Shown: piece after piece, positions 27,638-46,443 of the stretch
Position numbering within the stretch: position 1 is the first letter of the stretch
Layout of the letters: every line of letters begins with the position of its first letter
Origin: Candidatus Omnitrophota bacterium
Lineage (GTDB): Bacteria > Omnitrophota > Gorgyraeia > Gygaellales > Profunditerraquicolaceae
Assembly (NCBI GenBank): GCA_041653115.1
Contig: JBAZGA010000001.1
Span: 3-64,002 of the forward strand
Length of the DNA: 64,000 nt
Direction of reading: 5' to 3'
Notes under the pieces: generated by a model
What the model was told of the DNA's origin: nothing
The model's database searches: none
Seen by the model: only the letters and a program-made list of their open reading frames with translations
Program-made: the position numbers and the translations under genes

Positions 27638-27640
27638 AAA

Positions 27641-29692: not shown

Positions 29693-29693
29693 T

Positions 29694-30707: not shown

Positions 30708-30716
30708 AGAATATTT

Positions 30717-31436
30717 ATGAAAGTCATAATCAGTCAACCCAGATACTTGCCGGCCATAAACTATCTTCAACGGTTACATTTCGCTGATTTATTTGTATTC
30801 TTGGATAATGTACAGAGACAAGATCAGGGGGTCGAAAATAGAAATAAAATACTTATGAATGGCAAAGAAACCCTGCTCACTATTCCCATAGCCTCATCTC
30901 GGCTTGAGCTGATAAAAGACTCTTTGCTTGTAAATAAGCGATGGGTAAGAAAACACAAGGAAATCATACGCAATACTTATTGTAAGCACCCTCACTATAA
31001 TTACGAGATAATCAATGGTTATTATGCTGGCGCTGAAGAAATAATGGATAAAACAGGTGCTAATTTTGCGGACGTAGTGATACATTTAGTCCTTAATCTT
31101 TGTACTATATTTGGATTTAAACCTAACGTATTGCGCTCAAGTCATTATTGTTCTGCTGATAATTTAACGGGCCCTTTAAAGCTGCGGAAAATTTGTGAGG
31201 AAGCCGGAGCCTCTACCTATATTTCCGGCACCAATGGCAGGGATTATAAAGTAAAGGACGCGTTTTCGGGTTCCGGTATAGAAGTTGCCTTTCACGATTA
31301 TAAATACCCGGAATATAAACAGTATAATCAAGAGATATTCGTTCCGTGGTTATCTTTTTTTGACCCCCTATTCAACCTAGGAATAGAGGAAGTAAAGAAA
31401 TGGATTTATCAAAAACCAGAGTTCTCTTTGGAGTAG
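30717..31436 (+). CDS. WbqC-like family protein
   Basis: 'MKVIISQPRYLPAINYLQRL' is the typical WbqC-like N-terminus. Confidence 0.5.
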   Translation: MKVIISQPRYLPAINYLQRLHFADLFVFLDNVQRQDQGVENRNKILMNGKETLLTIPIASSRLELIKDSLLVNKRWVRKHKEIIRNTYCKHPHYNYEIINGYYAGAEEIMDKTGANFADVVIHLVLNLCTIFGFKPNVLRSSHYCSADNLTGPLKLRKICEEAGASTYISGTNGRDYKVKDAFSGSGIEVAFHDYKYPEYKQYNQEIFVPWLSFFDPLFNLGIEEVKKWIYQKPEFSLE

Positions 31437-31445
31437 GAGGTAGAA

Positions 31446-32120
31446 ATGACGGTTTTAATAATTGTTGCTCATCCAGACGATGAAATATTGGGTTGTGGGG
31501 GCACCGCGGCATGCCTGGCGAAAAAGGGCCACGAGATTTATACGTTGATATTGGGAGAAGGAATAACTTCAAGATTCAAGAAGAGGTCGGCAAAAAAAGC
31601 AGCGCTTCAGGTTAAGAAAATCAGAGAAATGGCGGTTAGCGCTAATAAGATAATCGGGGTAAAGAAAGTTTTCTTTTCTGGTCTGCCGGATAACAGATTC
31701 GACTCTTGTGATTTGCTTGACATTGTCAGGATAATTGAAAAGAAAAAAGAAGAAGTTCGGCCCGACATTATTTTTACCCATTATGAAAAAGATTTGAATA
31801 TAGACCATCAGATAACCTATAAGGCGGTAATCACCGCCACCAGGCCTACCGAGCACGAGACGGTCAGAGAAATATATGCTTCTGAAGTCCTGTCTTCTAC
31901 TGAATGGAATTTTCCGTTAAGTTTTTCTCCTGATGTCTTTTTTGATATCCAAGGCACGCTTGCTCTGAAACTAAAAGCATTAGGAATATACAAATCGGAA
32001 ATAAGGAGCTTTCCTTATCCGCGCTCCCTGGAGGGAGTGAAATATAATGCTGCGGTTTGGGGAATGAAGACAGGATTAAGATACGCTGAGGCTTTTAAAT
32101 GCGTGCGGGTCATCAAGTGA
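31446..32120 (+). CDS. PIG-L/LmbE family N-acetyl-sugar deacetylase
   Basis: 'LIIVAHPDDEILGCGGTAA' is the AHPDDE metal-binding motif. Confidence 0.65.
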   Translation: MTVLIIVAHPDDEILGCGGTAACLAKKGHEIYTLILGEGITSRFKKRSAKKAALQVKKIREMAVSANKIIGVKKVFFSGLPDNRFDSCDLLDIVRIIEKKKEEVRPDIIFTHYEKDLNIDHQITYKAVITATRPTEHETVREIYASEVLSSTEWNFPLSFSPDVFFDIQGTLALKLKALGIYKSEIRSFPYPRSLEGVKYNAAVWGMKTGLRYAEAFKCVRVIK

Positions 32121-32134
32121 AAGGTTCAAAGCAA

Positions 32135-33199
32135 ATGAATTTGAAAATTGAAAATAGGATATTGGGGAAAGGCCAGCCAGTTTTCATCGTAGCAGAATTA
32201 TCTGCAAACCATCTTCAGAATTTCGATCTCGCCGTAAAAACAATAAAAGCGATGAAAGAATCAGGCGCCGATGCAGTGAAGCTCCAGACCTATACTCCGG
32301 ATACGATAACTATTGATTCTATCAAGGAATATTTCCAAATAAAACACGGATCTCTATGGGATGGTAAGACACTTTATCAGCTTTACAAAGAAGCGTATAT
32401 GCCATGGGAATGGCAGCCAAAACTTAAGAAAATATCACAAGATTTGGGGCTGATTTTTTTCTCTACCCCTTCCGACAAAACTTCGGTAGATTTTTTAGAA
32501 ACGATGAAAGTCCCTGCTTACAAGATTGCCTCATTTGAGATAACCGATATTCCACTGATAGAATATGTCGCATCTAAGGGGAAGCCGGTTATTATCTCGA
32601 CGGGGGTGGCCGCACTTAGCGATATAGAGAATGCTGTTAAGGCATGCAAAAGGATGAACAATGAGGAGATAGCCATCATGAAATGTACCTCCGCTTATCC
32701 TGCCGCAGCGAAAGAAATCAATTTACATACAATTCCTGATTTAGCAAAAAGATTTAATGGAGTCGTGGGATTATCCGATCATACTCTAAGTACGTCCATA
32801 CCCGTTGCCGCTATTGCCCTGGGAGCGAAAATTATTGAAAAACATTTTACCTTAAAGAGAAAAAAAGGAGGACCTGATGCGGTATTTTCTCTGGAGCCTC
32901 CTGAATTTAAAAGCATGGTAAACGCAATACGGGATGCCGAAGAGGCCCTGGGAAGAGTAACATATGAATTGTCAGCGAGCGCAAAGAAGAACAAAATTTT
33001 TGCCCGTTCTTTATTCGTTATTAAAGAAATAAATAAAGGAGATATTTTTACTGAGGATAATATAAAATCGATAAGGCCCGGGAACGGCTTACCTCCTTGT
33101 TATTTGACGGAAATTCTTGGTAAAAAAGCGAAAAAAAACATTAATAAAGGTACGCCGCTTACCCGGGATTTAATAAAAGATACAAAAATAAGGAGTTAA
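32135..33199 (+). CDS. pseI: Pseudaminic acid synthase (PseI; NeuB family with SAF domain)
   Basis: 'PVFIVAELSANHLQNFDLAVKTIKAMKESGADAVKLQT' and 'LSDHTLS...AIALGAKIIEKHFTL', followed by a C-terminal SAF domain ('RSLFVIKEINKGDIFTEDNIKSIRPGNGL'). ATG 32135 is chosen over the ORF-track start because the upstream gene ends at 32120. Confidence 0.75.
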   Translation: MNLKIENRILGKGQPVFIVAELSANHLQNFDLAVKTIKAMKESGADAVKLQTYTPDTITIDSIKEYFQIKHGSLWDGKTLYQLYKEAYMPWEWQPKLKKISQDLGLIFFSTPSDKTSVDFLETMKVPAYKIASFEITDIPLIEYVASKGKPVIISTGVAALSDIENAVKACKRMNNEEIAIMKCTSAYPAAAKEINLHTIPDLAKRFNGVVGLSDHTLSTSIPVAAIALGAKIIEKHFTLKRKKGGPDAVFSLEPPEFKSMVNAIRDAEEALGRVTYELSASAKKNKIFARSLFVIKEINKGDIFTEDNIKSIRPGNGLPPCYLTEILGKKAKKNINKGTPLTRDLIKDTKIRS

Positions 33200-35197: not shown

Positions 35198-37156
35198 ATG
35201 CCAAACAAGATTATTGTTTTTGAGAAAATTTCAGATTTTTTCCGGCCTTTCTTAAGATGTTATTCTTTATTTGGATATAAAGTTTATTATTTGAGAGCAT
35301 CGCAAAAAAGCCTATCTAAAAAATGGGTTATAGATTATGAAAATAAAGGTTATATTTCTCGGATTAATCCCGATTGCCAGTTTTCTTACGATAAAGTTTT
35401 TTACCCGGATATGGCTTTTTCTAATATCGAAAATATATACCGGTCAGTCAGCGCCGAATCCGAAGCGATAAAGAGGGTAGTTTATTTATACCAAGATGCC
35501 CATGTTAATTTAGCCTTAAAAAAGAAGCTGATTTTTGAACTTTCAAGATTTTATTTTTTAAATACCCTATTAAATGAATTAGGTAAACAATTAAGTTTTA
35601 AGAGCTTTTATTTTGTACCCGGGGATGGCAACATTTTTAATCCTATAAACAATGATCCCCTTTCCTCTTATAATCAATTATTAAAATTAGTTAAAAAAAA
35701 TAAGCCATCATCTCTAAAAGAGACTAATTGTAGTTTCCCTTTATGGTATGTTTGCTTTAGTTTTATGAGAAATATATGTGAAATATCGGTATTTTACTTA
35801 AAATTATCCGGCTTTCTGATTTTATTAACCTACAGTTATTTATTTAAAAAAAATACTGCTAAAGCAAAATGCAAAAATTATAAATATTTAATCTCGATTA
35901 TGGCCCCACGAAGACAATTTTCTAACCAAGTTCAGAAGGTCGATTTCTTAGTAGATGAAAAATATATACGCAAGGAAGATACGCTTTTCTTTTATGCAAA
36001 GAAACTAAAAGATGAGTATCTCGAATATTGTGAAAGAAACGGCCTAAATTTAATAGATGGTTTTTTTCAACAATTCGATTTTAACAAAGCCGAAATAAGA
36101 AAAGTGTTTAAGGAAGTTTTTAAAACATTATTGAGCAGGCCGATCATGGTTCATTCTGTAAGAGAAGGTGTTTTAGAATCATTTTTATTTTATATCTGGT
36201 GGCAGACATTCGCCGATAAATACGCAGTTAAAAACTTCATAGGTTATCATGATTTTAGTTCCCAGGCTATTTGTAGAAATATAATCCTCAAAAAGAAGAC
36301 GCGGACAAAAACGTGGTTTTATTTAGATTCAGGGAGTTCTGCCGCTTTTTTTAGAACTAAGCAGGAAGATGAGTTATATAGAAGTTTTCATTTTATGTAT
36401 TTATATTTCGATTACTTTCCCTATTGGTCAGAGCCGCTGGTCAGCTATTTTAAAGACCACGATCTGGCGGTAGACAAATATCTTGCTACCGGTTGCCTGT
36501 GGTCAGAACATGTACGATTAATCAGTGAGAAGGTTATAAGGTCCGATCTTCTAGAAAGATTAGAGAGCTTTGGATTCAAAGACGGTCATAAAATTATCGC
36601 TGTTTTTGATTCCAGCTACGATTATGATGTCATTGATTCGTACGAGCACGGAATCGCTTTTATACAAGACATTTTACGTCTCGCCGACGATGTCCCCGAG
36701 GCGTTCATTATATTCAAAGAGAAAAAAGCGAGAAGTTATGTCCGAAAATATTGCCCAGCTCTTGCGCGGCTATATGAAAGTCTCCAGAATCATGCAAGAT
36801 TTTATTTACCGCCGGACGCCGGCAGCACATCCGAGGCCATTGCTTTTAGCGACTTGACAATTTCTTTTCCTTTTACCTCCACTACCGTTGAGGCCCTTGC
36901 TGCCAGGAAGAAAGCGCTATTTTACGATCCTTCTGGCAGGTTAAAAAGCATCTTCTATGATAACATCCCCGATTTAGTCTGCCATGGCTACGATAATCTT
37001 TTGGCAATGACAAAAAGGCTTTTGTTTGAAGCTAAGACGGGAGAATACGATTTGTACCTCGATAGATTTATCAAGGGTAATATAGACCCTTTTCTGGATG
37101 GTAAGGGGATAACTAGGTTTAGAGAGTTTATAAATTATTATAATAATGTTGTCTAG
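35198..37156 (+). CDS. Hypothetical large protein, putative GT-B-like glycosyltransferase (TagF/KpsS-like C-terminus)
   Basis: 652 aa, very AT-rich. C-terminal 'FSDLTISFPFTSTTVEALAARKKALFYDP' matches the D-[LY]-x-I-[ST]-x-x-[ST]-[ST]-x-x-E-A-L pattern of TagF/Capsule_synth-type enzymes and is shared with the ORFs at 6122 and 44476. Confidence 0.3.
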   Translation: MPNKIIVFEKISDFFRPFLRCYSLFGYKVYYLRASQKSLSKKWVIDYENKGYISRINPDCQFSYDKVFYPDMAFSNIENIYRSVSAESEAIKRVVYLYQDAHVNLALKKKLIFELSRFYFLNTLLNELGKQLSFKSFYFVPGDGNIFNPINNDPLSSYNQLLKLVKKNKPSSLKETNCSFPLWYVCFSFMRNICEISVFYLKLSGFLILLTYSYLFKKNTAKAKCKNYKYLISIMAPRRQFSNQVQKVDFLVDEKYIRKEDTLFFYAKKLKDEYLEYCERNGLNLIDGFFQQFDFNKAEIRKVFKEVFKTLLSRPIMVHSVREGVLESFLFYIWWQTFADKYAVKNFIGYHDFSSQAICRNIILKKKTRTKTWFYLDSGSSAAFFRTKQEDELYRSFHFMYLYFDYFPYWSEPLVSYFKDHDLAVDKYLATGCLWSEHVRLISEKVIRSDLLERLESFGFKDGHKIIAVFDSSYDYDVIDSYEHGIAFIQDILRLADDVPEAFIIFKEKKARSYVRKYCPALARLYESLQNHARFYLPPDAGSTSEAIAFSDLTISFPFTSTTVEALAARKKALFYDPSGRLKSIFYDNIPDLVCHGYDNLLAMTKRLLFEAKTGEYDLYLDRFIKGNIDPFLDGKGITRFREFINYYNNVV

Positions 37157-38957
37157 CGCAGAGGATAATAGCTTGAATTCAAAATCTTCTCAAATCCTAT
37201 ATTTTTTGAAACCCTATAAATTATTATATCTGGGTACTGTGTGTCTCAGTCTTTTGGTGGCGGCGTTAGATGCCTTTAATCTCGCCCTTCTTTTACCGGT
37301 GATGAATTACATTTTCGGAATCTTTTCTTCTCCCATTTCATCTTCCAGCCGTCTTTTGCTTTATATCGATAAAATAATTTCTTTGCTGCCATTTCAACAG
37401 AAAATAATTTCCGCCATATCTCTTTTAATATTTTTTACGATAATCAAATGCGCCTTCAGCATCTTAAACGAGTCTTTAATCAGCTACGCAAGCGCAAAGA
37501 TGCTTTATGATACAAGGAAGAACTTGTTGAATAAATATGCGCAAGCTGACTATCAATATTTTCTTGACCATAAACAAGGGGAAATGAACCATAATTTATT
37601 AGTTGCTTCGGGAAAGTTATCTTTTTTATTCATGAAACTGCCCTTACTGTTAGCAGAAATACTTAAAGTATCGGCTATAATAATAATTTTATTTACCATA
37701 AATTTATATGTCACTTTATTTTTTATCCCGTTAGCCATAATTTTTAATTTCTTTATCGGCTTTTTATCTAGGAATGTGTCGCATATAATAGGTATAAAAA
37801 AGACCCAGGCAAGTAATGAACAGGCGGTAATTTTCCATGAGTTTATCAGCGGCGCCAAACAGATCAAAGTATATCTGGCTAAAGACAGGTGGTTGAAGGG
37901 GTTTGATATTCAGAATAAAGAATTTAGCAAGTTATATATGAAAGACTATATCTGGCTTTCGATCCCGCGTAATATATTCGAATTAGTAACCATCTCGATA
38001 CTCTTTGGCCTGGTTTTGTTTATTGATTTGCAGCACACGGCAAATATAACAAAAGAATTGCCTACATTAGGCGTTTTTGCAATGGCCTTATTGAAACTCT
38101 TCCCTTCATCGGCTAATATCGCCAGAATAAAAATGGAGATCATCGGAACCTTGCCAGAACTCCAGGCAACCTATAAAGTGCTCAATATGCGGTCCGAAAG
38201 CATTAAAGCCGGAAGCGCCGAATTTAGAAACCTGAATAAGGGCATTAGTTTCGAAAATGTTTGCTTTACTTATAAAAATAACATTCTTGTCTTAGATAAT
38301 ATTAATATTCAATTTGAGAAGAATAAGGTCACGGCGATTGTGGGTATTTCTGGCTCAGGAAAGACTACTATCGTGAATTTGCTTTTAGGTCTATATCAGC
38401 CTACGCGGGGTAGGATTCTGATTGATGATATGGTAGCATTAAATGAATATAAAGTAGAAAGCTGGTTAAGCAAAATAGGAATAGTTACCCAGGATTCTTT
38501 TATCTTTCATTCAACAGTAGAAGATAATATCATTTTTGGATCAGCAGGGGCGAAAAGAGAGCAGGTTGAAGAGGCGTCCCGCTTAGCAAATGCTCATGAT
38601 TTTATAATGGGCCTGCCGCAGGGTTATAAGACTATTGTGGGAGAAAGAGGAATGAAGCTGTCTGGGGGGCAGCAGCAGCGGATCGCGATCGCCAGGGCAA
38701 TTTTAAGGAATCCCCAGATTCTTATTTTTGATGAAGCAATGAGTAACCTGGACAGCGCTTCCGAAAGGCTGATTCATGAATCTCTGAAGAATATAATTAA
38801 GAATCGTACAATTATTCTAATAGCGCATAGATTAAGTACGATTATCGATGCCGACAAAATTATTATAATTAAGGATGGAGCTATACACGCAGAGGGTCGG
38901 CATGAACAATTACTTCAGAAAGATGCCTTTTACAGGGATTTATATGCCGGAAGATAA
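37146..38957 (+). CDS. ABC exporter, fused permease and ATPase (MsbA/type I exporter-like)
   Basis: An N-terminal 6-TM domain, Walker A 'GISGSGKTTIVNLL', ABC signature 'LSGGQQQRIAIARAIL' and Walker B 'ILIFDEAMSNLD'. Confidence 0.75.
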   Translation: MLSSAEDNSLNSKSSQILYFLKPYKLLYLGTVCLSLLVAALDAFNLALLLPVMNYIFGIFSSPISSSSRLLLYIDKIISLLPFQQKIISAISLLIFFTIIKCAFSILNESLISYASAKMLYDTRKNLLNKYAQADYQYFLDHKQGEMNHNLLVASGKLSFLFMKLPLLLAEILKVSAIIIILFTINLYVTLFFIPLAIIFNFFIGFLSRNVSHIIGIKKTQASNEQAVIFHEFISGAKQIKVYLAKDRWLKGFDIQNKEFSKLYMKDYIWLSIPRNIFELVTISILFGLVLFIDLQHTANITKELPTLGVFAMALLKLFPSSANIARIKMEIIGTLPELQATYKVLNMRSESIKAGSAEFRNLNKGISFENVCFTYKNNILVLDNINIQFEKNKVTAIVGISGSGKTTIVNLLLGLYQPTRGRILIDDMVALNEYKVESWLSKIGIVTQDSFIFHSTVEDNIIFGSAGAKREQVEEASRLANAHDFIMGLPQGYKTIVGERGMKLSGGQQQRIAIARAILRNPQILIFDEAMSNLDSASERLIHESLKNIIKNRTIILIAHRLSTIIDADKIIIIKDGAIHAEGRHEQLLQKDAFYRDLYAGR

Positions 38958-39746: not shown

Positions 39747-39768
39747 TCTATTGAATAAGGAGCCATCA

Positions 39769-40500
39769 ATGAAAAAAGATCGTCTGTTTGCAAGGTTAAA
39801 TAAAAAGAGTAAAGCATTTAATTTTGGGAAAGATACCGCAGAAGTTTTTGATGATATGCTTATACGCAGTGTCCCTTTCTATGAAGAGACGCAGAGGATG
39901 ATGGTTGAGATTGCCAAGAGTTTTGCACAACCCAAGAGCAATATCTATGATTTGGGTTGTTCTACCGGCGCCACCTTGTCCGGCTTAGCCAAGTCAATTC
40001 AGGATGAGACTGTTAGAATTGTCGGCGTTGATAATTCACAAGCGATGCTTTCTAAGGCAAGAATAAATTTAAGAAAGAAAGGTTATCTTAACCGCTGCGC
40101 TTTGCAAAAAGGCGATCTAAATGAAAACATTAAATTTAATAACGCGAGTGTAGTTATAATGAATTTAACTTTACAATTTGTAAGGCCTTTGCACCGGGAC
40201 AGCCTGATAACAGATATATATAGAGGCCTTCGAAAGAATGGATGCCTGATTCTCATAGAGAAAGTATTGGGAGAAAACTTAATTTTTAATCAGGCTTTTA
40301 TAAATTTATATTACGATTTTAAAAGAAGGCATGGTTATTCGGAGCTTGAGATTGCTCAAAAGAGAGAAGCCCTGGAAAATGTGTTGATTCCATATAGGAT
40401 CAGGGAAAATCTGTTACTTTTAAACAGGAATGGTTTTAAAGAGACTGATATATTTTTTAAGTGGTATAATTTTTGCGGCCTGCTGGCATTAAAAATATAA
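39769..40500 (+). CDS. cmoA: CmoA-family carboxy-S-adenosyl-L-methionine (Cx-SAM) synthase homolog
   Basis: Strong collinear similarity to CmoA, judged from memory of the E. coli sequence: 'TAEVFDDMLIRSVPFYEE', 'IYDLGCSTGATLSGL', 'VDNSQAMLSKAR', 'ASVVIMNLTLQFVRP', 'YDFKRRHGYSELEIAQKREALENVL' and 'WYNFCGLLALK'. RBS AAGGAG lies 8 nt upstream of ATG 39769. Confidence 0.7.
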   Translation: MKKDRLFARLNKKSKAFNFGKDTAEVFDDMLIRSVPFYEETQRMMVEIAKSFAQPKSNIYDLGCSTGATLSGLAKSIQDETVRIVGVDNSQAMLSKARINLRKKGYLNRCALQKGDLNENIKFNNASVVIMNLTLQFVRPLHRDSLITDIYRGLRKNGCLILIEKVLGENLIFNQAFINLYYDFKRRHGYSELEIAQKREALENVLIPYRIRENLLLLNRNGFKETDIFFKWYNFCGLLALKI

Positions 40501-40506
40501 GGAGCA

Positions 40507-41550
40507 ATGATGGGATTTTCAGAAAAGGATTTAATTAGACGGATAGAGTCGGATATCAAGTTGCAATGTAATACAAAAGATGAGCTGATTCCAGGTAATT
40601 TAGGTAATTCTTGGGAACCGATATTTTTAAAAGAAACCGGAAATTTGATAAATCACGATTTATCAATTAATCTGAACGTTCTTAAGAATTTCAGAAAATC
40701 ATTTGTTTTACTTGTTGATTTCCCGATAGGCAGGCAATATCTAAATATCAGAAATTTACTGGATGGTCAAAGAAGGGGGCAACAAAAAGTTATTAAGAGA
40801 CACTGGCAAATTATAAAAGAGCATAATTATGATTATTTACTGAAGAGGTATCCCTGTTCTTTAGTCGGGAACCCCTATATTTATAGATATAATGGATATT
40901 CCTTTACCTGGCGATGGATTAAGAATGTTTATTATGCAGGGCTCTTTAAAAAAATTTTAGCAGAAAAAATAAGACAGGATTTTATAATTATGGATATTGG
41001 TTGTGGTTACGGGATATTTTCTTATATATTAAAGAATGAGTTTCAAAAAAGTCACCATGTTCTGGTCGACCTTCCTCAGCAGCTTGTTTTAGCACATTAT
41101 TTCTTAGCTAAACATTTCCCCGATGCGAGAATCGCAACTTACAAAGATATTTTTGAGGTAAATAAAATTGACCGTAATTTTTTGAATAAATACGATTTTA
41201 TTTTAATTCCCTGGCATATGTATACTAAAATAGAGCAAGGGAGTATAGATGTCTTGACTAACTTTGTATCTTTCGCCGAGATGGGGAGAAAGTATTTTGA
41301 CTATTATTTAAAACAAGAGCCATTCTTGAGTGTCAAGTACTTTTTTACCATCAATCGCTTTGTTTCTGCCCCGACATATGATAACGGGCTGACCATACTG
41401 GATTATCAGCTCGCTTCTTTCAGGGCGCTGCATTTTGCCATATTTCCTTTGGTTATGGAGAGATATAGAAGAAGCCGCTTTTTTTTCTATAAATACTTTC
41501 CGCACGAATCTCAACTTTTTGAGTTTATCGGAGAAAGACAGAAAATATGA
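40507..41550 (+). CDS. Class I methyltransferase-fold protein with a long N-terminal extension (candidate CmoB-like carboxymethyl/methyl transferase)
   Basis: 'IIMDIGCGYGIFSYIL' is motif I, about 165 aa from the N-terminus, followed by 'LVDLPQQLVLAHYFLAKHFPD'. The layout (a ~120 to 160 aa N-terminal region, then the Rossmann fold) and some aromatic-rich stretches are reminiscent of CmoB. RBS AAGGAG is present upstream, and the gene sits immediately downstream of the cmoA homolog. Confidence 0.4.
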   Translation: MMGFSEKDLIRRIESDIKLQCNTKDELIPGNLGNSWEPIFLKETGNLINHDLSINLNVLKNFRKSFVLLVDFPIGRQYLNIRNLLDGQRRGQQKVIKRHWQIIKEHNYDYLLKRYPCSLVGNPYIYRYNGYSFTWRWIKNVYYAGLFKKILAEKIRQDFIIMDIGCGYGIFSYILKNEFQKSHHVLVDLPQQLVLAHYFLAKHFPDARIATYKDIFEVNKIDRNFLNKYDFILIPWHMYTKIEQGSIDVLTNFVSFAEMGRKYFDYYLKQEPFLSVKYFFTINRFVSAPTYDNGLTILDYQLASFRALHFAIFPLVMERYRRSRFFFYKYFPHESQLFEFIGERQKI

Positions 41551-42482
41551 TACCCCGGAATAATGAATTGCGTTTTGAGATAGCCACTAAATGTAATTAT
41601 CATTGTCTGATCTGCCCCCGTAATAGCATTACTCGTAAACAAGAAATTATGAGCTTAGGTTTATTTAAGAAATTATTGGATAAAATAACCAGTGAGACCT
41701 CTCAATATGATACTTTAACCTTTCCCGGCATGGGTGAGCCATTATTAGACCCTACCATAGAAGACAAGGTTGCTTACGCAAGAAATAAAAAATTCAAAAT
41801 TTTAATTTTGACAAATGGTTCCTTGCTTTCGATTAACAAATTTAATAATTTGGAAGCTCTGGGCGTAGAATCCATAAGAGTAAGTATATATGGCAACGAT
41901 CCCGTAACATACGCAAAGGTGCATGGCCTTAAAAATGGAAAAGTATTCGAAAAGATTAGGTCAAATTTAACCCAGATAGCAAAAATAAAGAAAAAAACCA
42001 AGCTTTTATTAACCTTTAATGTCGTTAATGGGCTGAATGAAGATTGCCTATCTTCCTGGATAGGATACTGGAAAGATAAGGCAGATTTATTAGAGGTGTG
42101 GCGTCCGCATAATTGGGTTAATGGGCGGTCTTACCGGCAGATACAAAACGAGAGACTAAAGACCTGCGGAAGGCCCTGGAATACTCCTTTACAGATTCAG
42201 GTAGACGGTACTGTGAATATGTGCTGTTTTGACTTTAACGGAGAGCTTACTCTTGGGGATTTAAAAAAGCAAAGCCTTAAGGAGGTATTTTCTTCGCCAC
42301 TTTATAAAAAAATCATAAGGCATCATAAGACGGGTGATTTTAAAAATAGTCATTTAATCTGTGAAATGTGCGATCAGAGGAACTCGGATAAAGCAGGGGT
42401 GATGGTATATAGCTCAAATTCTAACATTGATGAACGAATCAGGCAATATTCAACGACGTACATAAATTTTAAAACCCAATAA
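41547..42482 (+). CDS. Radical SAM protein with SPASM-like C-terminal domain
   Basis: 'EIATKCNYHCLICPRNS' (CxxxCxxC) and a C-terminal 'CGRPWNTP...NMCCFDF' auxiliary-cluster-like region. Confidence 0.6.
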   Translation: MIPRNNELRFEIATKCNYHCLICPRNSITRKQEIMSLGLFKKLLDKITSETSQYDTLTFPGMGEPLLDPTIEDKVAYARNKKFKILILTNGSLLSINKFNNLEALGVESIRVSIYGNDPVTYAKVHGLKNGKVFEKIRSNLTQIAKIKKKTKLLLTFNVVNGLNEDCLSSWIGYWKDKADLLEVWRPHNWVNGRSYRQIQNERLKTCGRPWNTPLQIQVDGTVNMCCFDFNGELTLGDLKKQSLKEVFSSPLYKKIIRHHKTGDFKNSHLICEMCDQRNSDKAGVMVYSSNSNIDERIRQYSTTYINFKTQ

Positions 42483-42504: not shown

Positions 42505-43647
42505 ATGAATAGAATAATAAAAAAAGCTTTTCCCGAAAACATAAAAGCGCCTTTACGAAAAATAAGAGGCGTATATCGAGGGACTCTCGCTGCATATAAA
42601 AAATACGCAGTTCCAAAATTCTTAATTCATTTTGTCACAACTAGATGTCAGTTAAATTGCAAGCATTGTTTTTGTCCCTCTGAGTCAGACGCTTCCTCAA
42701 AAGATAAGCTTTCTTTGTCAGAACTAAAAAAGGTAATTTTGTCTTTTAATGCCCCCATTGATACGGTCGTTTTAACCGGGGGAGAGCCGTTTTTGCATAA
42801 AGACTTAGTCGAGATGGCGCTATTGTATAATTCACTGAATAAAGCCAGGATCATCTCAATAAATACGAACGGATATGCCACAGATACGATCGTTAATAGC
42901 GTCAATAAAATACTGAATGATTTAGATAATAATTCATGCCTCTCTCTGCAGGTTTCGCTCGATGGCCCTGAGAGGATTCATAATGATATCCGAGGCAATC
43001 CGTATTCATTCCAAAATGCCGCTGAAACAATAAGACGCCTTAAAAAAATACAGGTAGCGAATGATAAAATGCATATTCATACGTTATGTATAATTAATCA
43101 AAAAAATTGCAATTATCTAAAGGAATTGTCCAGCTATTGTATGGAAAATCTTAATATGCCTATCTATTTTGAGCTGGTGAGGAGAAATATCTGTGATTTT
43201 CATTCAGTAGAGTATAAACCAAGGGATGGATTAACCGGCGATTTATCTTTTGATTTAAAACGAGCCTTTAATGATATCGTACATATTTATAATCAGCAGG
43301 ATAAGCGCTTTAAAAGCAAATCCTGTTCAAGCATGATAGGCAAAATAAGGGATGAATTTACTATTGCCCGGGAAGGCAAGAGGTTATTTGCATGCATGGC
43401 GGGCAACTACGCAGGCGCACTCTTCAGCAACGGAGATGTGAGCCCCTGTGAATTATTGGATTTCCGCCTTAACTTAAGAGACTTTGATTATAATTTCCCA
43501 AAGATCTGGAATTCACCCCGGATGCGAGCCGTTGTTGAGAAAATAAGGCGTTCCTGCTTTTGTACCCTTGGCTGTTTTGTCGGTTTATCGCGTCAAAGGA
43601 TTGACTATCAACTGAAAACACTTTTTGCCAAACCGAAATTTTTATAA
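42505..43647 (+). CDS. Radical SAM protein with SPASM-like C-terminal domain
   Basis: 'VTTRCQLNCKHCFC' (CxxxCxxC), and C-terminal 'CMAGNYAGALFSNGDVSPCE' plus 'CFCTLGCFVG'. Confidence 0.6.
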   Translation: MNRIIKKAFPENIKAPLRKIRGVYRGTLAAYKKYAVPKFLIHFVTTRCQLNCKHCFCPSESDASSKDKLSLSELKKVILSFNAPIDTVVLTGGEPFLHKDLVEMALLYNSLNKARIISINTNGYATDTIVNSVNKILNDLDNNSCLSLQVSLDGPERIHNDIRGNPYSFQNAAETIRRLKKIQVANDKMHIHTLCIINQKNCNYLKELSSYCMENLNMPIYFELVRRNICDFHSVEYKPRDGLTGDLSFDLKRAFNDIVHIYNQQDKRFKSKSCSSMIGKIRDEFTIAREGKRLFACMAGNYAGALFSNGDVSPCELLDFRLNLRDFDYNFPKIWNSPRMRAVVEKIRRSCFCTLGCFVGLSRQRIDYQLKTLFAKPKFL

Positions 43648-43648
43648 A

Positions 43649-44623
43649 ATGGTTATTGCTGATAGAGCTATGGCGGTATCTTACGTAATTCCCGTTTTTA
43701 ACCGCTCCCGTTATATAAAAGAAGTTATAGAAGCAATAAACCGGCAGAGCGGCATTAACCGTTCTGAGGTTATCATAATTGACGATGCCTCATCCGATAA
43801 CCCGGAGAAAGAAATAAATCCATTCAAACAGGATAATATCAAAGTTTTTTTTAATCGCCAAAACATGGGTGCTGCTTATTCAAGAAATTTAGGTTTCAGA
43901 ATGTCAAAACATGAATATATCGCTTTTATCGACAGCGATGTAATCCTCCTGCCCGATACAACGGTTAAAATGCTTGAAATTTGTCAGGAATACGACATCG
44001 CGCATGTTGTGCCATTTTGGCCCAACGGCAAACCGATTGTTTCATTAGAAAACAGCAAAGAGTATCCCAGGATATCGGCCTGTTATATGATGAAAAAAGA
44101 AACCCTGCAATATCTGGACAGAATCGGTCAGTTATACGATGAGAATTACGGTATCTACCTTGAAGATATTGATTTTTTCTTCCGTTGCTCTCTTTTCGGC
44201 CTAAAGGCAAAGTGTATCGAAGAGATGAATGCACTCCATATTGCATTCGATTTCACTAAAGACACAAGCTACAGGCATTACCTTTGCTTAAGAAACAATA
44301 TCTATTCCAATATAAAATACCTGCGTATAAAAATACCTGGTAAGCCGGATTTTAAAAATGTCTTTTCATTTAAATCTATAATTTTAAAAATAATAGCGAT
44401 GCTATTTAACTACGATCTTTATAAAAAGTATTCTGCCCAGATATCCGGAAAAAAAAGACATCTTAATAATATTCAATGGATGCGGGATCCATCCCTGAAG
44501 ATTACAAGCAGGCATCTGCTTCTTTTTTTTCTGATTCCAAGGGCTATTTTATGGAATATTTTGAATATACATTCCCCTCTAAAAAAGGGGAAACAGCTTG
44601 CCAAACTGATATGCCAAAAATAA
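43649..44623 (+). CDS. Family 2 glycosyltransferase
   Basis: 'VSYVIPVFNRSRYIKEVIEAINRQSGINRSEVIIIDDASSDN' and 'IDSDV' (DxD). ATG 43649 immediately follows the upstream stop. Confidence 0.65.
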   Translation: MVIADRAMAVSYVIPVFNRSRYIKEVIEAINRQSGINRSEVIIIDDASSDNPEKEINPFKQDNIKVFFNRQNMGAAYSRNLGFRMSKHEYIAFIDSDVILLPDTTVKMLEICQEYDIAHVVPFWPNGKPIVSLENSKEYPRISACYMMKKETLQYLDRIGQLYDENYGIYLEDIDFFFRCSLFGLKAKCIEEMNALHIAFDFTKDTSYRHYLCLRNNIYSNIKYLRIKIPGKPDFKNVFSFKSIILKIIAMLFNYDLYKKYSAQISGKKRHLNNIQWMRDPSLKITSRHLLLFFLIPRAILWNILNIHSPLKKGKQLAKLICQK

Positions 44624-46443
44624 TAATATCCATAAATAATAAGAAGCTGCGCAACTTTCTAAATGGTAATAGGGATAATTTTACCGTTCTCAAGGCAGAT
44701 AGCAAAGATAGCAATACGCAGCAATTTTTATCTGAACATAACACCATAGATATATATGATATACCTCAGGCCAGCCGGGATGATTTTGTGCAGTCCTATT
44801 TATCTTTAATCGAAGAACTTTCTTTAATGAATAATGATAAATACTGGTGGGCTTATTCTACTTCTTCAAAAAACAGGCACATGTCAAAGCTGTTTGATCA
44901 CCTGTATATATTTGTATTAATCACAAATGTTATTGAAAAGGTTAAAGAGAGAAATATTATTATCCTGAATCCTCCCAACAGTATCATCAAGCCCCTGGCA
45001 AGATACCTCGATCATAAAAAGAGAGAAACCAGAATAATCGGCAGAATCGGTTTTCCCGATTATCACGAGGCTTTATTTGTTAATATTAATTTCTTCGTAA
45101 ATACGGCTATCAGGATTTATTATATTACCTTCCGCATAATCTTATCGAAAATTCTGCTTTTACATAAATATAACAGGCTTATTTCAGAAAATAAAAGATG
45201 GTTTGTTTTTAGGAGCTGGTTTAATAATCAATCATTCCCGAAAGGCGGGGCTTACCATGATTCATTCTTTGGAGAATTATGTCAATACTTAAAAGAGAGG
45301 AACAGGCCCGTTTTATTAATTGTAGGTATGTTCGGGGTTAAGTTTAGAAATGCTATTTTTGCAATAGCAAAAATAAAAGATTATAGCGTGTTTCCTGTGG
45401 AGTTTTTTTTAAAATGGTCTGATTTATTAAAAGCCATGATTGACGCTTTGAAATCTAAAGTGGTATTAAAAAGAAGCATTCATTTTAAGAATAATCTTGA
45501 TATTTCGGACATAATCCAATATCACCTAAATATAGATTTCTCAAATACCTTATTTTTGAATATACTTTATTTCTATATTTCTAAAAACCTGGCAAATAAT
45601 ATTTTAATAGAGCGGATTTTCTTAACCTCGGAGAATAATTGCTGGGAGAAGATGTGTATTCAGGCGATAAGAGATTTTTCCCGTTTGACGAAGATAATCG
45701 GCTTTCCGCATGCCATAGTTTCACCGGCTAAGTTAAGCATGATATTGAGTGAATATGAGAAAGAAAAGATGCCATTGCCCGATACGCTGGTCACGAATGG
45801 AGAGATTACCAAAGATTTACTTATTAATACCGGGAAATACGATACCAGTATGATTAAGGCGGGTTGTGCATTAAAGTATAAAAAAATTTTAGACCTCAAA
45901 TTAAAAACAAGAAAAATAAGCAATGAAAGAACTTTCCTTGCGGCATTTGAAGGCGTTAACGAATCCGCAGAATTGATAAATTTTATTTATGATTGCTTTA
46001 AAGAAAGTTCCGCCCATAAAGTAATTATTAGACCGCATCCAGCTTTGCCTATAATAAAAATAAGGCAGTATTTAAGGTTTCACCCAGACAGGTTGCCGAA
46101 AAATTTTTCAATAAGCATAAGTAAAGAAAGAAGCCTGATAGATGATTTGTCAATCGCGGATTTCTTATTATACAATGGTTCTACTGTTTCTATAGAAGCG
46201 CTGGCCATGGGAATACCCGTTATCTATATTGATTTAAAGAAGGCGGTCTGCAGCGATCCACTATTTAGTTGTAATTATCTAAAAAAAATAGCAAGCACCA
46301 AAACAGAGTTACAGTTTGCTATAGATTTTTTTAATACTATGGACTCAGGCGAATTTACCAAACAACAGCGGTTAGCAAATGATTATACCAGAAGATATTT
46401 TTACCCCGTTAATGAAAAAAATTTACAAGTATTTCTACAATAA
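44611..46443 (+). CDS. Hypothetical large protein, putative GT-B-like glycosyltransferase (TagF/KpsS-like C-terminus); start uncertain (44476, 44551 or 44611)
   Basis: C-terminal 'IADFLLYNGSTVSIEALAMGIPVIYIDL' matches the same donor-binding-like pattern seen in the ORFs at 6122 and 35198. No other recognisable family was found by eye. Confidence 0.3.
   Translation: MPKIIISINNKKLRNFLNGNRDNFTVLKADSKDSNTQQFLSEHNTIDIYDIPQASRDDFVQSYLSLIEELSLMNNDKYWWAYSTSSKNRHMSKLFDHLYIFVLITNVIEKVKERNIIILNPPNSIIKPLARYLDHKKRETRIIGRIGFPDYHEALFVNINFFVNTAIRIYYITFRIILSKILLLHKYNRLISENKRWFVFRSWFNNQSFPKGGAYHDSFFGELCQYLKERNRPVLLIVGMFGVKFRNAIFAIAKIKDYSVFPVEFFLKWSDLLKAMIDALKSKVVLKRSIHFKNNLDISDIIQYHLNIDFSNTLFLNILYFYISKNLANNILIERIFLTSENNCWEKMCIQAIRDFSRLTKIIGFPHAIVSPAKLSMILSEYEKEKMPLPDTLVTNGEITKDLLINTGKYDTSMIKAGCALKYKKILDLKLKTRKISNERTFLAAFEGVNESAELINFIYDCFKESSAHKVIIRPHPALPIIKIRQYLRFHPDRLPKNFSISISKERSLIDDLSIADFLLYNGSTVSIEALAMGIPVIYIDLKKAVCSDPLFSCNYLKKIASTKTELQFAIDFFNTMDSGEFTKQQRLANDYTRRYFYPVNEKNLQVFLQ

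What the first reader, a model, noticed from the sequence alone, without database searches (positions are those of the whole stretch)
39751..41550. Cx-SAM synthase (CmoA) homolog and a divergent methyltransferase-fold partner embedded in a pseudaminic acid glycan operon
The 39769-40500 product aligns collinearly with CmoA over essentially its full length. Matching blocks are 'AEVF.DM..RSVP.Y', 'YDLGCS.GA..L', 'DNS.AM', 'NLTLQF', 'DFKR..GYSELEI.QKR..LENV' and 'NF..L.ALK'. Established knowledge says CmoA makes carboxy-SAM from SAM and prephenate, and that the only known consumer is CmoB for tRNA cmo5U. Here the gene is translationally coupled inside a 57-kb sugar operon, with its own strong RBS. 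It is followed 7 nt later by a 347-aa class I methyltransferase-fold protein, with an RBS and motif I 'IIMDIGCGYG' after a ~165-aa N-terminal extension. That partner only loosely resembles CmoB. The flanks are a GNAT, two SPASM radical SAMs and glycosyltransferases. Inference: a Cx-SAM-dependent carboxymethyl transfer onto a nonulosonic acid, sugar or glycan, rather than onto tRNA. That would be an undescribed use of Cx-SAM. The alternative is a bona fide cmoAB tRNA-modification pair that happens to sit inside the glycan operon.
Basis: partly seen in the sequence, partly recalled or inferred. Interest (0 to 1): 0.85.

Follow-up and report, generated by a model that had tools for sequence, protein, structure and literature searches.

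The report
Carboxy-SAM synthase beside sugar methyltransferase
In the surface-sugar gene cluster of an uncultured bacterium, the gene for the enzyme that makes carboxy-SAM sits directly before a sugar-methyltransferase-like gene, and the pairing recurs in many phyla, so bacteria may attach carboxymethyl groups to surface sugars, which has not been described.

Summary
ORF 39769-40500 is a full-length CmoA (carboxy-SAM synthase). It passes the curated CmoA model and keeps Arg199 and the cofactor-binding residues. The next gene (40507/40510-41550) is not CmoB. It belongs to the NanM family of putative sugar O-methyltransferases and has a class I methyltransferase fold with a unique N-terminal extension. 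Both lie in a one-strand glycan locus of about 57 kb in a Candidatus Omnitrophota MAG, with PseB/C/F/G/I, glycosyltransferases, an ABC exporter and an O-antigen-ligase-like gene.

In 23 of 27 informative loci from about ten phyla, a NanM-like gene has a CmoA-like gene within 5 kb, usually within 50 nt, and in either order. No cmoB is nearby. The best reading is a two-enzyme module: CmoA makes Cx-SAM and the NanM-like enzyme carboxymethylates a sugar of the glycan.

Caveats:
- Fourteen of the 23 pairs use a divergent CmoA-like clade that lacks Arg199.
- Four close relatives of the partner have no cmoA nearby.
- No carboxylate-binding residue could be identified in the partner.
- The acceptor is unknown.

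A glycan use was not found in the literature searched. I rate it a new variant of a known kind.

The parts
39757..39762 (+). Shine-Dalgarno AAGGAG, 6 nt before the cmoA ATG
   Evidence: read from the sequence
39769..40500 (+). cmoA: carboxy-SAM (Cx-SAM) synthase, 243 aa, 'class 1' (Arg199 present)
   Evidence: TIGR00740 247.9 bits, cutoff 193.3. PDB 4GEK/1IM8 E about 1e-49 over the full length. Y39, D62, G64, S66, D89, N90, D117, N132, F137, E164 and R199 are conserved. NCBI names the identical protein CmoA.
40499..40504 (+). Shine-Dalgarno AAGGAG overlapping the cmoA stop codon, 5 nt before ATG 40510
   Evidence: read from the sequence
40510..41550 (+). NanM-family methyltransferase-fold partner (346 aa; 347 aa if started at ATG 40507); proposed Cx-SAM-dependent sugar carboxymethyltransferase
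41547..42482 (+). radical SAM/SPASM protein 1, start overlaps the partner stop (ATGA); possibly part of the same modification module
   Evidence: PF04055 + PF13186. A 58%-identical homolog lies 1 kb downstream of the pair in L007, with weaker ones in L003, L011, L012, L015 and L020.
42505..43647 (+). radical SAM/SPASM protein 2 (context)
   Evidence: PF04055, PF13353, PF13186
38961..39746 (+). GNAT N-acetyltransferase (WecD-like), directly upstream of cmoA (context)
   Evidence: PF00583; NF008212 E 1.4e-10
35198..37156 (+). PFTS-motif polysaccharide biosynthesis protein; homologs lie beside the pair, or between its two genes, in other loci
   Evidence: TIGR04417 156.6 bits, cutoff 100. PFTS homologs in L003, L006, L008, L010, L011, L108 and L113.
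37146..38957 (+). MsbA/PglK-like ABC exporter (context; homologs next to the pair in L004, L010, L011, L012)
24629..33199 (+). pseudaminic acid block: PseB, PseC, aldo-keto reductase, PseF-type cytidylyltransferase fused to an aminotransferase, PseG, WbqC-like, LmbE-like deacetylase, PseI
   Evidence: TIGR03589, TIGR03588, TIGR03590 and TIGR03586 all above cutoff. PF02348 and PF08889.
44476..46443 (+). LIC13510-like surface carbohydrate biosynthesis protein (context; the true start is probably near 44611, per the gene call on L001)
   Evidence: TIGR04326/TIGR04396 weak hits. Homologs downstream of the pair in L007, L008 and L010. L001 gene call.
21985..23880 (+). AsnB-like glutamine amidotransferase; speculative candidate for amidating a carboxymethyl group
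   Evidence: PF00733 330 bits. AsnB-like genes abut the pair in L019, L111 and L113 and lie 0.9 kb from it in L017. Phage CmoY is an AsnB homolog acting on a carboxymethyl group.

Best explanation
A two-gene carboxymethylation module is embedded in a pseudaminic-acid-containing surface glycan operon.

Step 1, shown by homology only. The CmoA encoded at 39769-40500 converts SAM plus prephenate into carboxy-SAM (Cx-SAM).

Step 2, inferred from conserved gene pairing. The translationally coupled NanM-family methyltransferase-fold protein (40510-41550) uses Cx-SAM instead of SAM as alkyl donor. It transfers a carboxymethyl group, most likely to a sugar hydroxyl, giving an -O-CH2-COO- ether of the same chemical type as cmo5U.

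Step 3, inferred from context and weakly supported. The acceptor is a nonulosonic acid (Pse derivative) or a neighbouring sugar, either as a nucleotide sugar or on the lipid-linked glycan. The glycan is then exported and ligated by the ABC transporter and the O-antigen-ligase-like protein of the same locus.

Step 4, speculative. Other enzymes of the locus (an AsnB-like amidotransferase, extra class I methyltransferases) may further amidate or esterify the new carboxyl group, as CmoY and CmoM do in the DNA and tRNA systems.
For: CmoA identity.
- TIGR00740 scores above its cutoff, and the protein aligns over its full length with solved CmoA structures at E about 1e-49.
- Arg199 is present. It forms the salt bridge to the Cx-SAM carboxylate and is not conserved in ordinary SAM-dependent enzymes (PMC3663124). 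The SAM-contacting residues listed there and Glu164 are also kept, apart from the conservative A70T and I118L.

The partner is a sugar-type methyltransferase, not CmoB.
- TIGR04371 scores above its cutoff.
- The AF2 model is confident and matches only class I MTase cores, including the sugar O-MT RebM and the O-antigen-terminating methyltransferase WbdD.
- BLASTP against E. coli CmoB matches only motif I.

Functional coupling.
- In the window there are 6-9 nt between the genes, each gene has its own RBS, and the partner overlaps the next gene by ATGA.
- 23 of 27 informative NanM-like loci have a CmoA-like gene within 5 kb, mostly -22 to +51 nt away and in both gene orders. The sources are Omnitrophota, Nitrospirae, Peribacteria, Myxococcota, Dehalococcoidia, Elusimicrobia, Deltaproteobacteria, Bacteroidetes, Pelagibacteraceae, Prochlorococcus and Hoeflea.

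Glycan link. PseI/NeuB-like, PseB, PFTS, ABC-exporter and LIC13510-like genes recur in those loci.

This CmoA lineage works with non-CmoB partners.
- Its 80 closest metagenomic relatives (54-62% identity) have neither cmoB nor NanM-like neighbours.
- 51 of the 64 with room downstream are followed directly by an LmtA/ICMT-like membrane methyltransferase gene. Two others are followed by a class I MTase gene.

Precedent. CmoA homolog plus an unrelated MTase-fold enzyme is an established carboxymethylation system: TglE/TglF, MccS/MccB-CTD and phage CmoA/CmoX. According to its abstract, the Herbert 2020 paper shows that methyltransferases can use cxSAM to carboxymethylate their substrates (PMC7496830, abstract).
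Against: - There is no biochemical or structural evidence, and no natural O-carboxymethylated nonulosonic acid or glycan is known to me.
- 14 of the 23 conserved pairs use a divergent 'class 2' CmoA-like protein. It scores 139 bits on TIGR00740, below the cutoff. Arg199 is replaced by A/Q/S/T, Asn132 by Tyr/Phe, and Glu203 by Lys. The ancestral pair may therefore not need Cx-SAM.
- Partners linked to class 1 and to class 2 show no discriminating residue. I could not identify a carboxylate-binding Lys/Arg equivalent to CmoB Lys91 or the CmoX Arg.
- Four loci with close relatives of the window's partner (L002, L004, L108 and the P0012 locus) have no CmoA-like gene in the flanks held, which range from 2.7 to 10 kb.
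- More distant family members in Aeromonas and Sideroxyarcus flagellin-glycosylation-like loci have none either, so the fold as such works with plain SAM.
- The window's CmoA is not in a glycan-specific clade. It could also, or only, feed a cmoB located elsewhere in the genome.
Confidence: 0.55

Rival explanations
1. The two proteins are functionally coupled, but not through Cx-SAM. In this context the CmoA-like protein would be an ordinary methyltransferase, a SAM-handling subunit, or the maker of a different SAM derivative. It would act with the NanM-like enzyme, for example in two successive methylations or as a heteromeric enzyme.
For: - Most conserved pairs (14 of 23) carry class-2 CmoA-like proteins without Arg199. 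These score below the CmoA cutoff.
- Partners of the two classes are interleaved in the tree: 100% bootstrap for a clade holding both, 79% for a second. They show no class-specific residue. The partner therefore probably does the same chemistry with either class.
Against: - The window's protein is class 1, with every CmoA cofactor-binding residue tested, including Arg199, and it passes the equivalog model.
- The interleaving can equally mean that class 2 also makes Cx-SAM. It keeps the whole CmoA-specific C-terminal lid, its best PDB hit is CmoA over the full length (E 1e-22), and in 13 of the 14 it gains a Lys one helical turn from position 199 (E203K).
- In E. coli CmoA the lid makes the cofactor almost inaccessible to solvent (PMC3663124). 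That argues against direct transfer to a large acceptor.
Confidence: 0.2
2. Ordinary housekeeping cmoA for tRNA cmo5U happens to lie in the glycan operon. The partner is a plain SAM-dependent sugar O-methyltransferase, and cmoB is elsewhere in the genome.
For: - The CmoA is canonical in all residues tested, and NCBI and IMG name it as the tRNA-pathway enzyme.
- It does not form a glycan-specific clade.
- Some NanM-like genes, including close relatives, work without an adjacent cmoA.
Against: - Adjacency of a normally single-copy gene to the same rare family (62 clusters at E<=1e-30 among 1.84 billion representatives) recurs in 23 of 27 loci, across many phyla and in both gene orders. Chance does not explain that.
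- There is tight coupling inside a long glycan operon, and no cmoB in the 64 kb.
- A dual role, feeding both tRNA and glycan, is not excluded and is compatible with the best explanation.
Confidence: 0.1
3. CmoA does supply Cx-SAM to the glycan pathway, but the consumer is another enzyme of the locus, for example the class I methyltransferases at 46379-47275, 34256-35197 or 20984-21985. The NanM-like protein would then be a normal O-methyltransferase.
For: - The locus holds at least four further methyltransferase-fold genes.
- The 46379 product gives the only, very weak, CmoB-like signal in the window: PF08003 21.9 bits against a 23.8 cutoff, NF011650 33.8 against 209.
Against: - The gene that travels with cmoA in other genomes is the NanM-like gene. 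The window's 46379 methyltransferase had no reportable homolog in the 22 genome loci.
- The CmoB similarity of 46379 is confined to the Rossmann motif region.
Confidence: 0.1

Closest known systems
CmoA/CmoB (tRNA cmo5U34 pathway, E. coli)
   Same: The Cx-SAM synthase is of the same family: 37% identity by tblastn to E. coli CmoA, a full-length alignment to the solved structures, and Arg199 and the SAM-binding residues conserved. The transferase gene lies immediately downstream in an operon, as cmoA-cmoB does in E. coli. The expected product is an O-carboxymethyl ether.
   Different: The downstream gene is not CmoB. It has no hit to TIGR00452, NF011650 or PF08003 and shares only motif I in BLASTP. 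The context is a glycan operon rather than tRNA modification. A sugar hydroxyl acceptor is far less acidic than 5-hydroxyuridine, so a catalytic base would be needed.
TglE/TglF (3-thiaglutamate biosynthesis, Pseudomonas syringae)
   Same: A CmoA homolog is recruited into a specialised pathway to supply Cx-SAM to a pathway-specific carboxymethyltransferase (PMC10491745).
   Different: TglF is a CmoB homolog that keeps Lys91 and alkylates a peptide thiol. The partner here belongs to another family and is expected to act on a sugar.
MccS/MccB C-terminal domain (microcin C-like compound of Bacillus amyloliquefaciens)
   Same: A CmoA homolog is paired with a methyltransferase-fold enzyme that is unrelated to CmoB yet strictly Cx-SAM specific (PMC10491745). 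This is the same logic as proposed here.
   Different: The acceptor is a peptidyl-cytidylate, the transferase is a fused domain of MccB, and the context is an antibiotic cluster.
Phage CmoA/CmoX/CmoY (5-carboxymethylcytosine and its glycine amide in DNA)
   Same: CmoA sits next to a member of an ordinary methyltransferase family that has switched to Cx-SAM, and an asparagine-synthetase homolog then amidates the new carboxyl (PMC12783734). AsnB-like genes abut the pair in L019, L111 and L113, lie 0.9 kb from it in L017, and occur in the window's locus.
   Different: CmoX is a DNA C5-MTase homolog with a defined Arg that contacts the carboxylate. No such residue could be assigned in the NanM-like partner, and the acceptor is DNA rather than a glycan.
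TIGR04371 'methyltran_NanM' putative sugar O-methyltransferases
   Same: The partner scores 120.9 bits against a cutoff of 44 and shares the family's conserved blocks (NFR, GNP, DxGxxYG, DLPxQL, TNFxSxxEM, NR).
   Different: Family members with a C2185-like N-terminal domain in Aeromonas and Sideroxyarcus loci have no CmoA-like neighbour and are presumably plain SAM-dependent methyltransferases. The subfamily found here is almost always paired with a CmoA-like gene.

Membership tests
CmoA, carboxy-SAM synthase (NCBIfam TIGR00740) | Score above the curated equivalog cutoff over the whole model | tested here: met
   247.9 bits against 193.3, model positions 1-239 of 239
CmoA, carboxy-SAM synthase (NCBIfam TIGR00740) | Full-length collinear similarity to solved CmoA structures, including the C-terminal lid helices | tested here: met
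   4GEK E 1.1e-49 (query 3-242 to chain 18-256); 1IM8 E 1.8e-49
CmoA, carboxy-SAM synthase (NCBIfam TIGR00740) | Arg199, which forms the salt bridge to the Cx-SAM carboxylate (PMC3663124) | tested here: met
   Arg in 'AQKREALENV' aligns with E. coli R199
CmoA, carboxy-SAM synthase (NCBIfam TIGR00740) | SAM-contacting residues Y39, D62, G64, S66, D89, N90, D117, N132, F137 and conserved E164 | tested here: met
   All identical. A70 is Thr and I118 is Leu, both conservative.
CmoA, carboxy-SAM synthase (NCBIfam TIGR00740) | Catalysis: SAM + prephenate gives Cx-SAM + phenylpyruvate | not testable with these tools
   Needs an enzyme assay. Prephenate-pocket residues were not available from the papers I could read.
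Gammaproteobacterial-type CmoA (NCBIfam NF011995 / PRK15451) | Score above the curated cutoff | tested here: not met
   180.2 bits against 285. In an NJ tree it sits in a separate clade from E. coli and H. influenzae CmoA.
CmoB, tRNA U34 carboxymethyltransferase (TIGR00452, NF011650, PF08003) | Family HMM match of the gene next to cmoA | tested here: not met
CmoB, tRNA U34 carboxymethyltransferase (TIGR00452, NF011650, PF08003) | Cx-SAM carboxylate triad Lys91, Tyr200, Arg315 | tested here: inconclusive
   No alignment beyond motif I, so no equivalent positions can be assigned. Conserved basic residues exist in the partner (R63, R89/R90, R135, R261, R284), but none could be tied to the cofactor.
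CmoB, tRNA U34 carboxymethyltransferase (TIGR00452, NF011650, PF08003) | Any cmoB elsewhere in the window | tested here: not met
   tblastn of E. coli CmoB finds only the motif I region of the 46379 methyltransferase (31 bits). NF011650 gives 33.8 against 209.
TIGR04371 methyltran_NanM, putative sugar O-methyltransferase | Score above the curated cutoff | tested here: met
   120.9 bits against 44, residues 47-283 on model positions 43-273 of 273. NCBI gives the same name.
TIGR04371 methyltran_NanM, putative sugar O-methyltransferase | Class I (Rossmann) methyltransferase fold with motif I and an acidic residue after strand 2 | tested here: met
TIGR04371 methyltran_NanM, putative sugar O-methyltransferase | Methyl transfer from SAM to a sugar hydroxyl | not testable with these tools
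   The family name is itself 'putative', and I found no characterised close homolog.
CmoA-coupled carboxymethylation systems (CmoA/CmoB, TglE/TglF, MccS/MccB, CmoA/CmoX) | CmoA homolog encoded next to a methyltransferase-fold gene, with the pairing conserved across genomes | tested here: met
   23 of 27 informative loci, about ten phyla, both gene orders, gaps mostly under 50 nt
CmoA-coupled carboxymethylation systems (CmoA/CmoB, TglE/TglF, MccS/MccB, CmoA/CmoX) | Transferase has a basic residue that selects the Cx-SAM carboxylate | tested here: inconclusive
   No column separates the partners of class 1 and class 2 CmoA-like genes. By eye, no conserved basic residue sets the paired partners apart from the unpaired family members fetched.
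CmoA-coupled carboxymethylation systems (CmoA/CmoB, TglE/TglF, MccS/MccB, CmoA/CmoX) | Carboxymethylated product | not testable with these tools
   Needs MS/NMR of the glycan or an in vitro reaction.

The most novel reading that the evidence does not exclude
Carboxymethylation by Cx-SAM is a general but overlooked modification of bacterial cell envelopes. In this reading, a large non-gammaproteobacterial CmoA lineage exists mainly to feed dedicated, non-CmoB carboxymethyltransferases. These include NanM-like enzymes acting on nonulosonic-acid-type surface glycans, as in this window, and LmtA/ICMT-like membrane enzymes acting on lipid A or another lipid, as in its closest relatives. The divergent Arg199-less 'class 2' CmoA-like clade found in SAR11, Prochlorococcus, Bacteroidetes and Hoeflea would be a second type of Cx-SAM (or related SAM-derivative) synthase. 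The new carboxyl group could then serve as a handle for amidation by the AsnB-like enzymes often encoded alongside.
Probability: 0.35. Interest if true: 0.85.

Novelty: new variant of a known kind. Interest (0 to 1): 0.7.

Why it matters
Cx-SAM is a rare cofactor. The published consumers I found act on tRNA, a peptide thiol, a peptidyl-nucleotide and DNA.

A sugar or glycan acceptor would:
- add a new class of substrate;
- define a new acidic ether substituent on bacterial surface glycans, relevant to charge, antigenicity and phage or immune recognition;
- give a function to a widely annotated but uncharacterised 'putative sugar O-methyltransferase' family.

The idea is directly testable with two small soluble proteins, and cultured Hoeflea strains carry a related pair. 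The survey also shows that annotation pipelines label these genes as tRNA-modification enzymes, which is probably misleading for a whole CmoA lineage.

Tried and rejected
1. Partner as a diverged CmoB. Rejected: no HMM hit, BLASTP matches only motif I, and no CmoB appears among the structural neighbours.

2. The 46379 methyltransferase as a hidden CmoB. Rejected: 31-34 bits, confined to the Rossmann motif region.

3. A carboxylate-selecting residue in the partner.
- Contrasting partners linked to class 1 and class 2 CmoA-like genes gave no discriminating column.
- Inspecting paired members against unpaired distant relatives gave nothing convincing: R261 is frequent but not invariant, and is absent from the paired P0145 group.
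- The AF2 model coordinates are not exposed to scripts, so no docking or pocket analysis was possible.

4. A glycan-specific CmoA clade. Not found. NanM-linked class 1 CmoAs are scattered at the base of, or inside, a clade dominated by LmtA-like-linked CmoAs (NJ tree without bootstrap).

5. The first attempt to scan genomes with the 38-sequence partner alignment failed for lack of a conserved block. It was repeated with 14 closer sequences.

6. Kim et al. 2013 (Nature) could not be read under the id I tried, so the prephenate-pocket residues were not checked. Byrne et al. 2013 was used instead.

I did not pursue it because the sequence evidence is already strong.

9. A literature hit linking 'CmoA' and lipid A was a false match to the culture medium name 'cMoAb'.


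Full report
WHAT IS THERE. The window comes from a Candidatus Omnitrophota MAG contig. Exact look-ups return NCBI proteins MFA5410270.1 'carboxy-S-adenosyl-L-methionine synthase CmoA' and MFA5410271.1 'putative sugar O-methyltransferase' on a 101.6-kb contig. From about 430 to 57633 all sizeable ORFs are on the + strand with short gaps or overlaps.

Contents of the locus:
- a flippase-type protein, a UDP-GlcNAc 2-epimerase, a B12-radical SAM enzyme, a C-methyltransferase and GT4 glycosyltransferases;
- an AsnB-like amidotransferase at 21985;
- PseB, PseC, PseG and PseI, all above their curated cutoffs;
- a PseF-type cytidylyltransferase domain fused to an aminotransferase, and a WbqC-like protein;
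- three radical SAM/SPASM proteins, a PFTS-motif protein, an MsbA/PglK-like ABC exporter, a GNAT, further glycosyltransferases and methyltransferases;
- at the distal end, a WecA/PGT-type initiating transferase, an O-antigen-ligase-like protein and a spermidine-synthase-like membrane protein, followed by the housekeeping genes pgk, tpiA and glgC at higher G+C.

The 34-48 kb stretch shows no excess of promoter-like or terminator-like sites. The description of a long sugar operon containing a pseudaminic acid pathway is therefore correct.

THE TWO GENES. ORF 39769-40500 has AAGGAG 6 nt upstream of its ATG. It scores 247.9 bits on TIGR00740 (CmoA, cutoff 193.3) over the whole model. It aligns end to end with the solved CmoA structures 4GEK and 1IM8 at E about 1e-49. 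Byrne et al. (PMC3663124) list the cofactor-contacting residues of E. coli CmoA and single out Arg199 as the salt-bridge partner of the Cx-SAM carboxylate, noting that it is not conserved in ordinary SAM enzymes. The window protein keeps Y39, D62, G64, S66, D89, N90, D117, N132, F137, E164 and R199. It does not reach the cutoff of the gammaproteobacterial sub-model NF011995 (180 against 285).

IS THE PAIRING MEANINGFUL? The partner's family is rare. An exhaustive HMMER search of 1.84 billion representatives found 62 clusters at E<=1e-30 and 301 at E<=1e-10.

A scan of one genome per GTDB species found 22 loci encoding relatives, and contig look-ups added more. tblastn and residue analysis gave the following tally:
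- 23 of 27 informative loci have a CmoA-like gene within 5 kb of the NanM-like gene.
- The gap is usually between -22 and +51 nt.
- Both gene orders occur.
- In three loci (L003, L006, L113) a PFTS-motif gene lies between the two.

The sources are Omnitrophota, Nitrospirae, Peribacteria, Myxococcota, Dehalococcoidia, Elusimicrobia, Deltaproteobacteria, Bacteroidetes, Pelagibacteraceae, Prochlorococcus, a marine metagenome lineage and cultured Hoeflea. PseI/NeuB-like, PseB, PFTS, ABC-exporter and LIC13510-like genes recur nearby. The Hoeflea loci instead hold carrier-protein/thioesterase and GT25 genes. Conserved adjacency of this extent, surviving gene-order inversion, is the main evidence that the two proteins work together.

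TWO CLASSES OF CmoA-LIKE NEIGHBOUR. Nine pairs carry 'class 1' proteins: the window, L003, L006, L008 (frameshifted), L009, L010, L012, L013 and L113. These are 46-61% identical to the window's CmoA, and the eight intact ones examined keep Arg199 (L008 was not aligned). All 17 members scanned, of both classes, have TIGR00740 as their best family. Fourteen pairs carry 'class 2' proteins at about 30% identity. Their best family and best PDB hit are still CmoA over the full length. However, the one class 2 protein whose score was listed (L007) reaches only 139 bits, below the 193.3 cutoff. In class 2, Arg199 is A/Q/S/T, Asn132 is Tyr/Phe, and Glu203, one helical turn further on, is Lys in 13 of 14.

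In a bootstrapped NJ tree of the partners, class 1-linked and class 2-linked proteins are interleaved. One clade with 100% support contains the window, L003, L006 and L008 (class 1), L007 (class 2) and three with no CmoA-like gene in the DNA held. Another, with 79% support, mixes L010, L012 and L013 (class 1) with L011, L016 and L018 (class 2). No alignment column separates the two partner groups.

The two classes therefore appear interchangeable for the partner. Since class 1 is a canonical Cx-SAM synthase by every sequence criterion, I read this as class 2 probably providing the same or an equivalent cofactor. The opposite reading, that the pair's function does not depend on Cx-SAM, cannot be dismissed and is my main rival.

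WHERE THIS CmoA COMES FROM. A metagenome scan with the class 1 alignment returned the 80 best of 532 relatives, at 54-62% identity to the window's CmoA. None has a NanM-like, Pse or E. coli-type cmoB gene in the flanks. Instead, 51 of the 64 loci with at least 400 nt downstream carry a gene for a membrane methyltransferase of about 250 aa, related to LmtA and ICMT, directly after cmoA. Two others are followed by a soluble class I methyltransferase gene, and in L046 two radical SAM genes come after it.

In an NJ tree the NanM-linked class 1 CmoAs lie scattered at the base of, and within, this clade. E. coli and H. influenzae CmoA sit on a separate long branch, and class 2 forms its own clade (no bootstrap, and no cmoB-linked CmoAs from other phyla were available). 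So the window's CmoA belongs to a lineage whose members are habitually paired with non-CmoB methyltransferase-fold proteins of several families. This fits a role as a Cx-SAM supplier for envelope-modifying transferases.

EXCEPTIONS. Four loci with close relatives of the window's partner have no CmoA-like gene in the flanks held, which range from 2.7 to 10 kb. These are L002, L004, L108 (fused to a HAD domain) and the P0012 locus. L108 and the P0012 locus sit in a CTP-transferase/SIS/HpcH-aldolase/HAD context that looks like another ulosonic-acid pathway. More distant TIGR04371-type proteins with a C2185-like N-terminal domain, in Aeromonas and Sideroxyarcus flagellin-glycosylation-like loci, also lack one. 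The fold can therefore operate without a dedicated CmoA, presumably with SAM.

COMPARISON WITH WHAT IS KNOWN. TglE/TglF, MccS/MccB-CTD (a transferase unrelated to CmoB yet strictly Cx-SAM specific) and phage CmoA/CmoX/CmoY are published (PMC10491745; PMC12783734). By its abstract, PMC7496830 shows that methyltransferases can use cxSAM for carboxymethylation. The present pair follows the same logic with a new transferase family and, by context, a new acceptor class.

Full-text searches combining CmoA or Cx-SAM terms with polysaccharide, pseudaminic, nonulosonic, legionaminic and flagellin-glycosylation terms found no paper that makes the link. AsnB-like amidotransferase genes abut the pair in L019, L111 and L113, lie 0.9 kb from it in L017, and occur elsewhere in the locus in the window, L006, L012 and L014. 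This recalls CmoY, but AsnB homologs are common in glycan loci, so I treat it as a lead only.

VERDICT. The core of the interpretation, a CmoA-fed non-tRNA carboxymethylation in a glycan pathway, is the best-supported explanation (confidence about 0.55), on comparative-genomic grounds only. The specific acceptor is unknown. It is a new variant of a known kind of system. It is not categorically new, but it is undescribed for glycans and readily testable.

Noticed in passing
L025-L104 (for example L043 6001-6720 cmoA, 6733-7488 next gene; L033, L040, L091, L103): The closest metagenomic relatives of the window's CmoA (54-62% identity) are followed directly by a membrane methyltransferase gene of about 250 aa related to LmtA and ICMT. 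This holds in 51 of the 64 loci with room downstream. The TIGR04571 scores are 77-98 bits, below the cutoff. In L033 an ArnC-like GT2 gene lies upstream. This looks like another CmoA plus non-CmoB transferase pair, possibly carboxymethylating lipid A or another lipid. I found no literature on it.
   Followed up: partly
L007 9283-9990, L011, L014, L016-L022, L105 9044-9754, L106 8778-9488, L107 230-946, L111 9346-10056: A divergent 'class 2' CmoA-like clade (about 236 aa) is always found next to NanM-like genes. Its sources include SAR11, Prochlorococcus, Bacteroidetes and Hoeflea. It lacks Arg199 (A/Q/S/T), has Tyr/Phe for Asn132 and usually Lys for Glu203, and carries the motif K-x-x-S-L-K-G-V-L-E-P-F-S. 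Its cofactor chemistry is unknown.
   Followed up: partly
L046 364-5423: The nearest relative of the window's CmoA in the NJ tree is followed by a 392-aa class I methyltransferase gene, a B12-binding radical SAM gene and a radical SAM gene with an HMPTM-type zinc ribbon. L028 has cmoA followed by a 274-aa Methyltransf_25/11 gene. These may be further Cx-SAM-using pathways.
   Followed up: no
L108 7727-9403 (protein P0026): A NanM-like domain is fused to an N-terminal HAD phosphatase domain. It lies in a locus with a cytidylyltransferase, SIS, an HpcH/HpaI aldolase and dehydrogenases, which resembles an ulosonic-acid pathway. No CmoA-like gene is present on the 12.8-kb contig. The P0012 locus has the same context with a separate HAD gene.
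   Followed up: partly
L111/L112 5181-13256: In a widespread marine lineage (P0145: 18 member sequences, 30 contigs) a 441-aa NanM-family protein is flanked by two AsnB-like amidotransferases. It is separated from a class 2 CmoA-like gene by an FMN-dependent alpha-hydroxy-acid dehydrogenase gene (PF01070).
   Followed up: no
window 21985-23880; L017, L019, L111, L113: AsnB-like glutamine amidotransferase genes sit next to or near the pair in several loci and occur in the window's locus. Phage CmoY, which amidates a carboxymethyl group, is an AsnB homolog. This may or may not be a meaningful parallel.
   Followed up: partly
window 27641-29692: A 683-aa fusion of a PseF/NeuA-type cytidylyltransferase domain (PF02348, residues 5-183) with a class III aminotransferase resembling glutamate-1-semialdehyde aminomutase (residues about 256-682). 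Together with the WbqC-like (30717) and LmbE-like deacetylase (31446) genes, it suggests a non-standard Pse derivative.
   Followed up: no
L008 2603-3338: The cmoA next to the NanM-like gene in a Candidatus Peribacteria MAG is split into two overlapping reading frames. This is either a frameshift or an assembly error.
   Followed up: no
window 43625-44623 and 44476-46443: The mechanical ORFs of the GT2 and the LIC13510-like gene overlap by 148 nt. Gene calls on the identical Logan contig L001 start both later, at about 43649 and 44611, which leaves an overlap of only 13 nt.
   Followed up: no
window 6122-7816, 8588-9631, 12576-14102, 16092-18687, 49665-50159, 58889-59263: Several sizeable ORFs of the glycan locus, and a 124-aa ORF between pgk and tpiA, have no Pfam or NCBIfam match at the thresholds used.
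   Followed up: no
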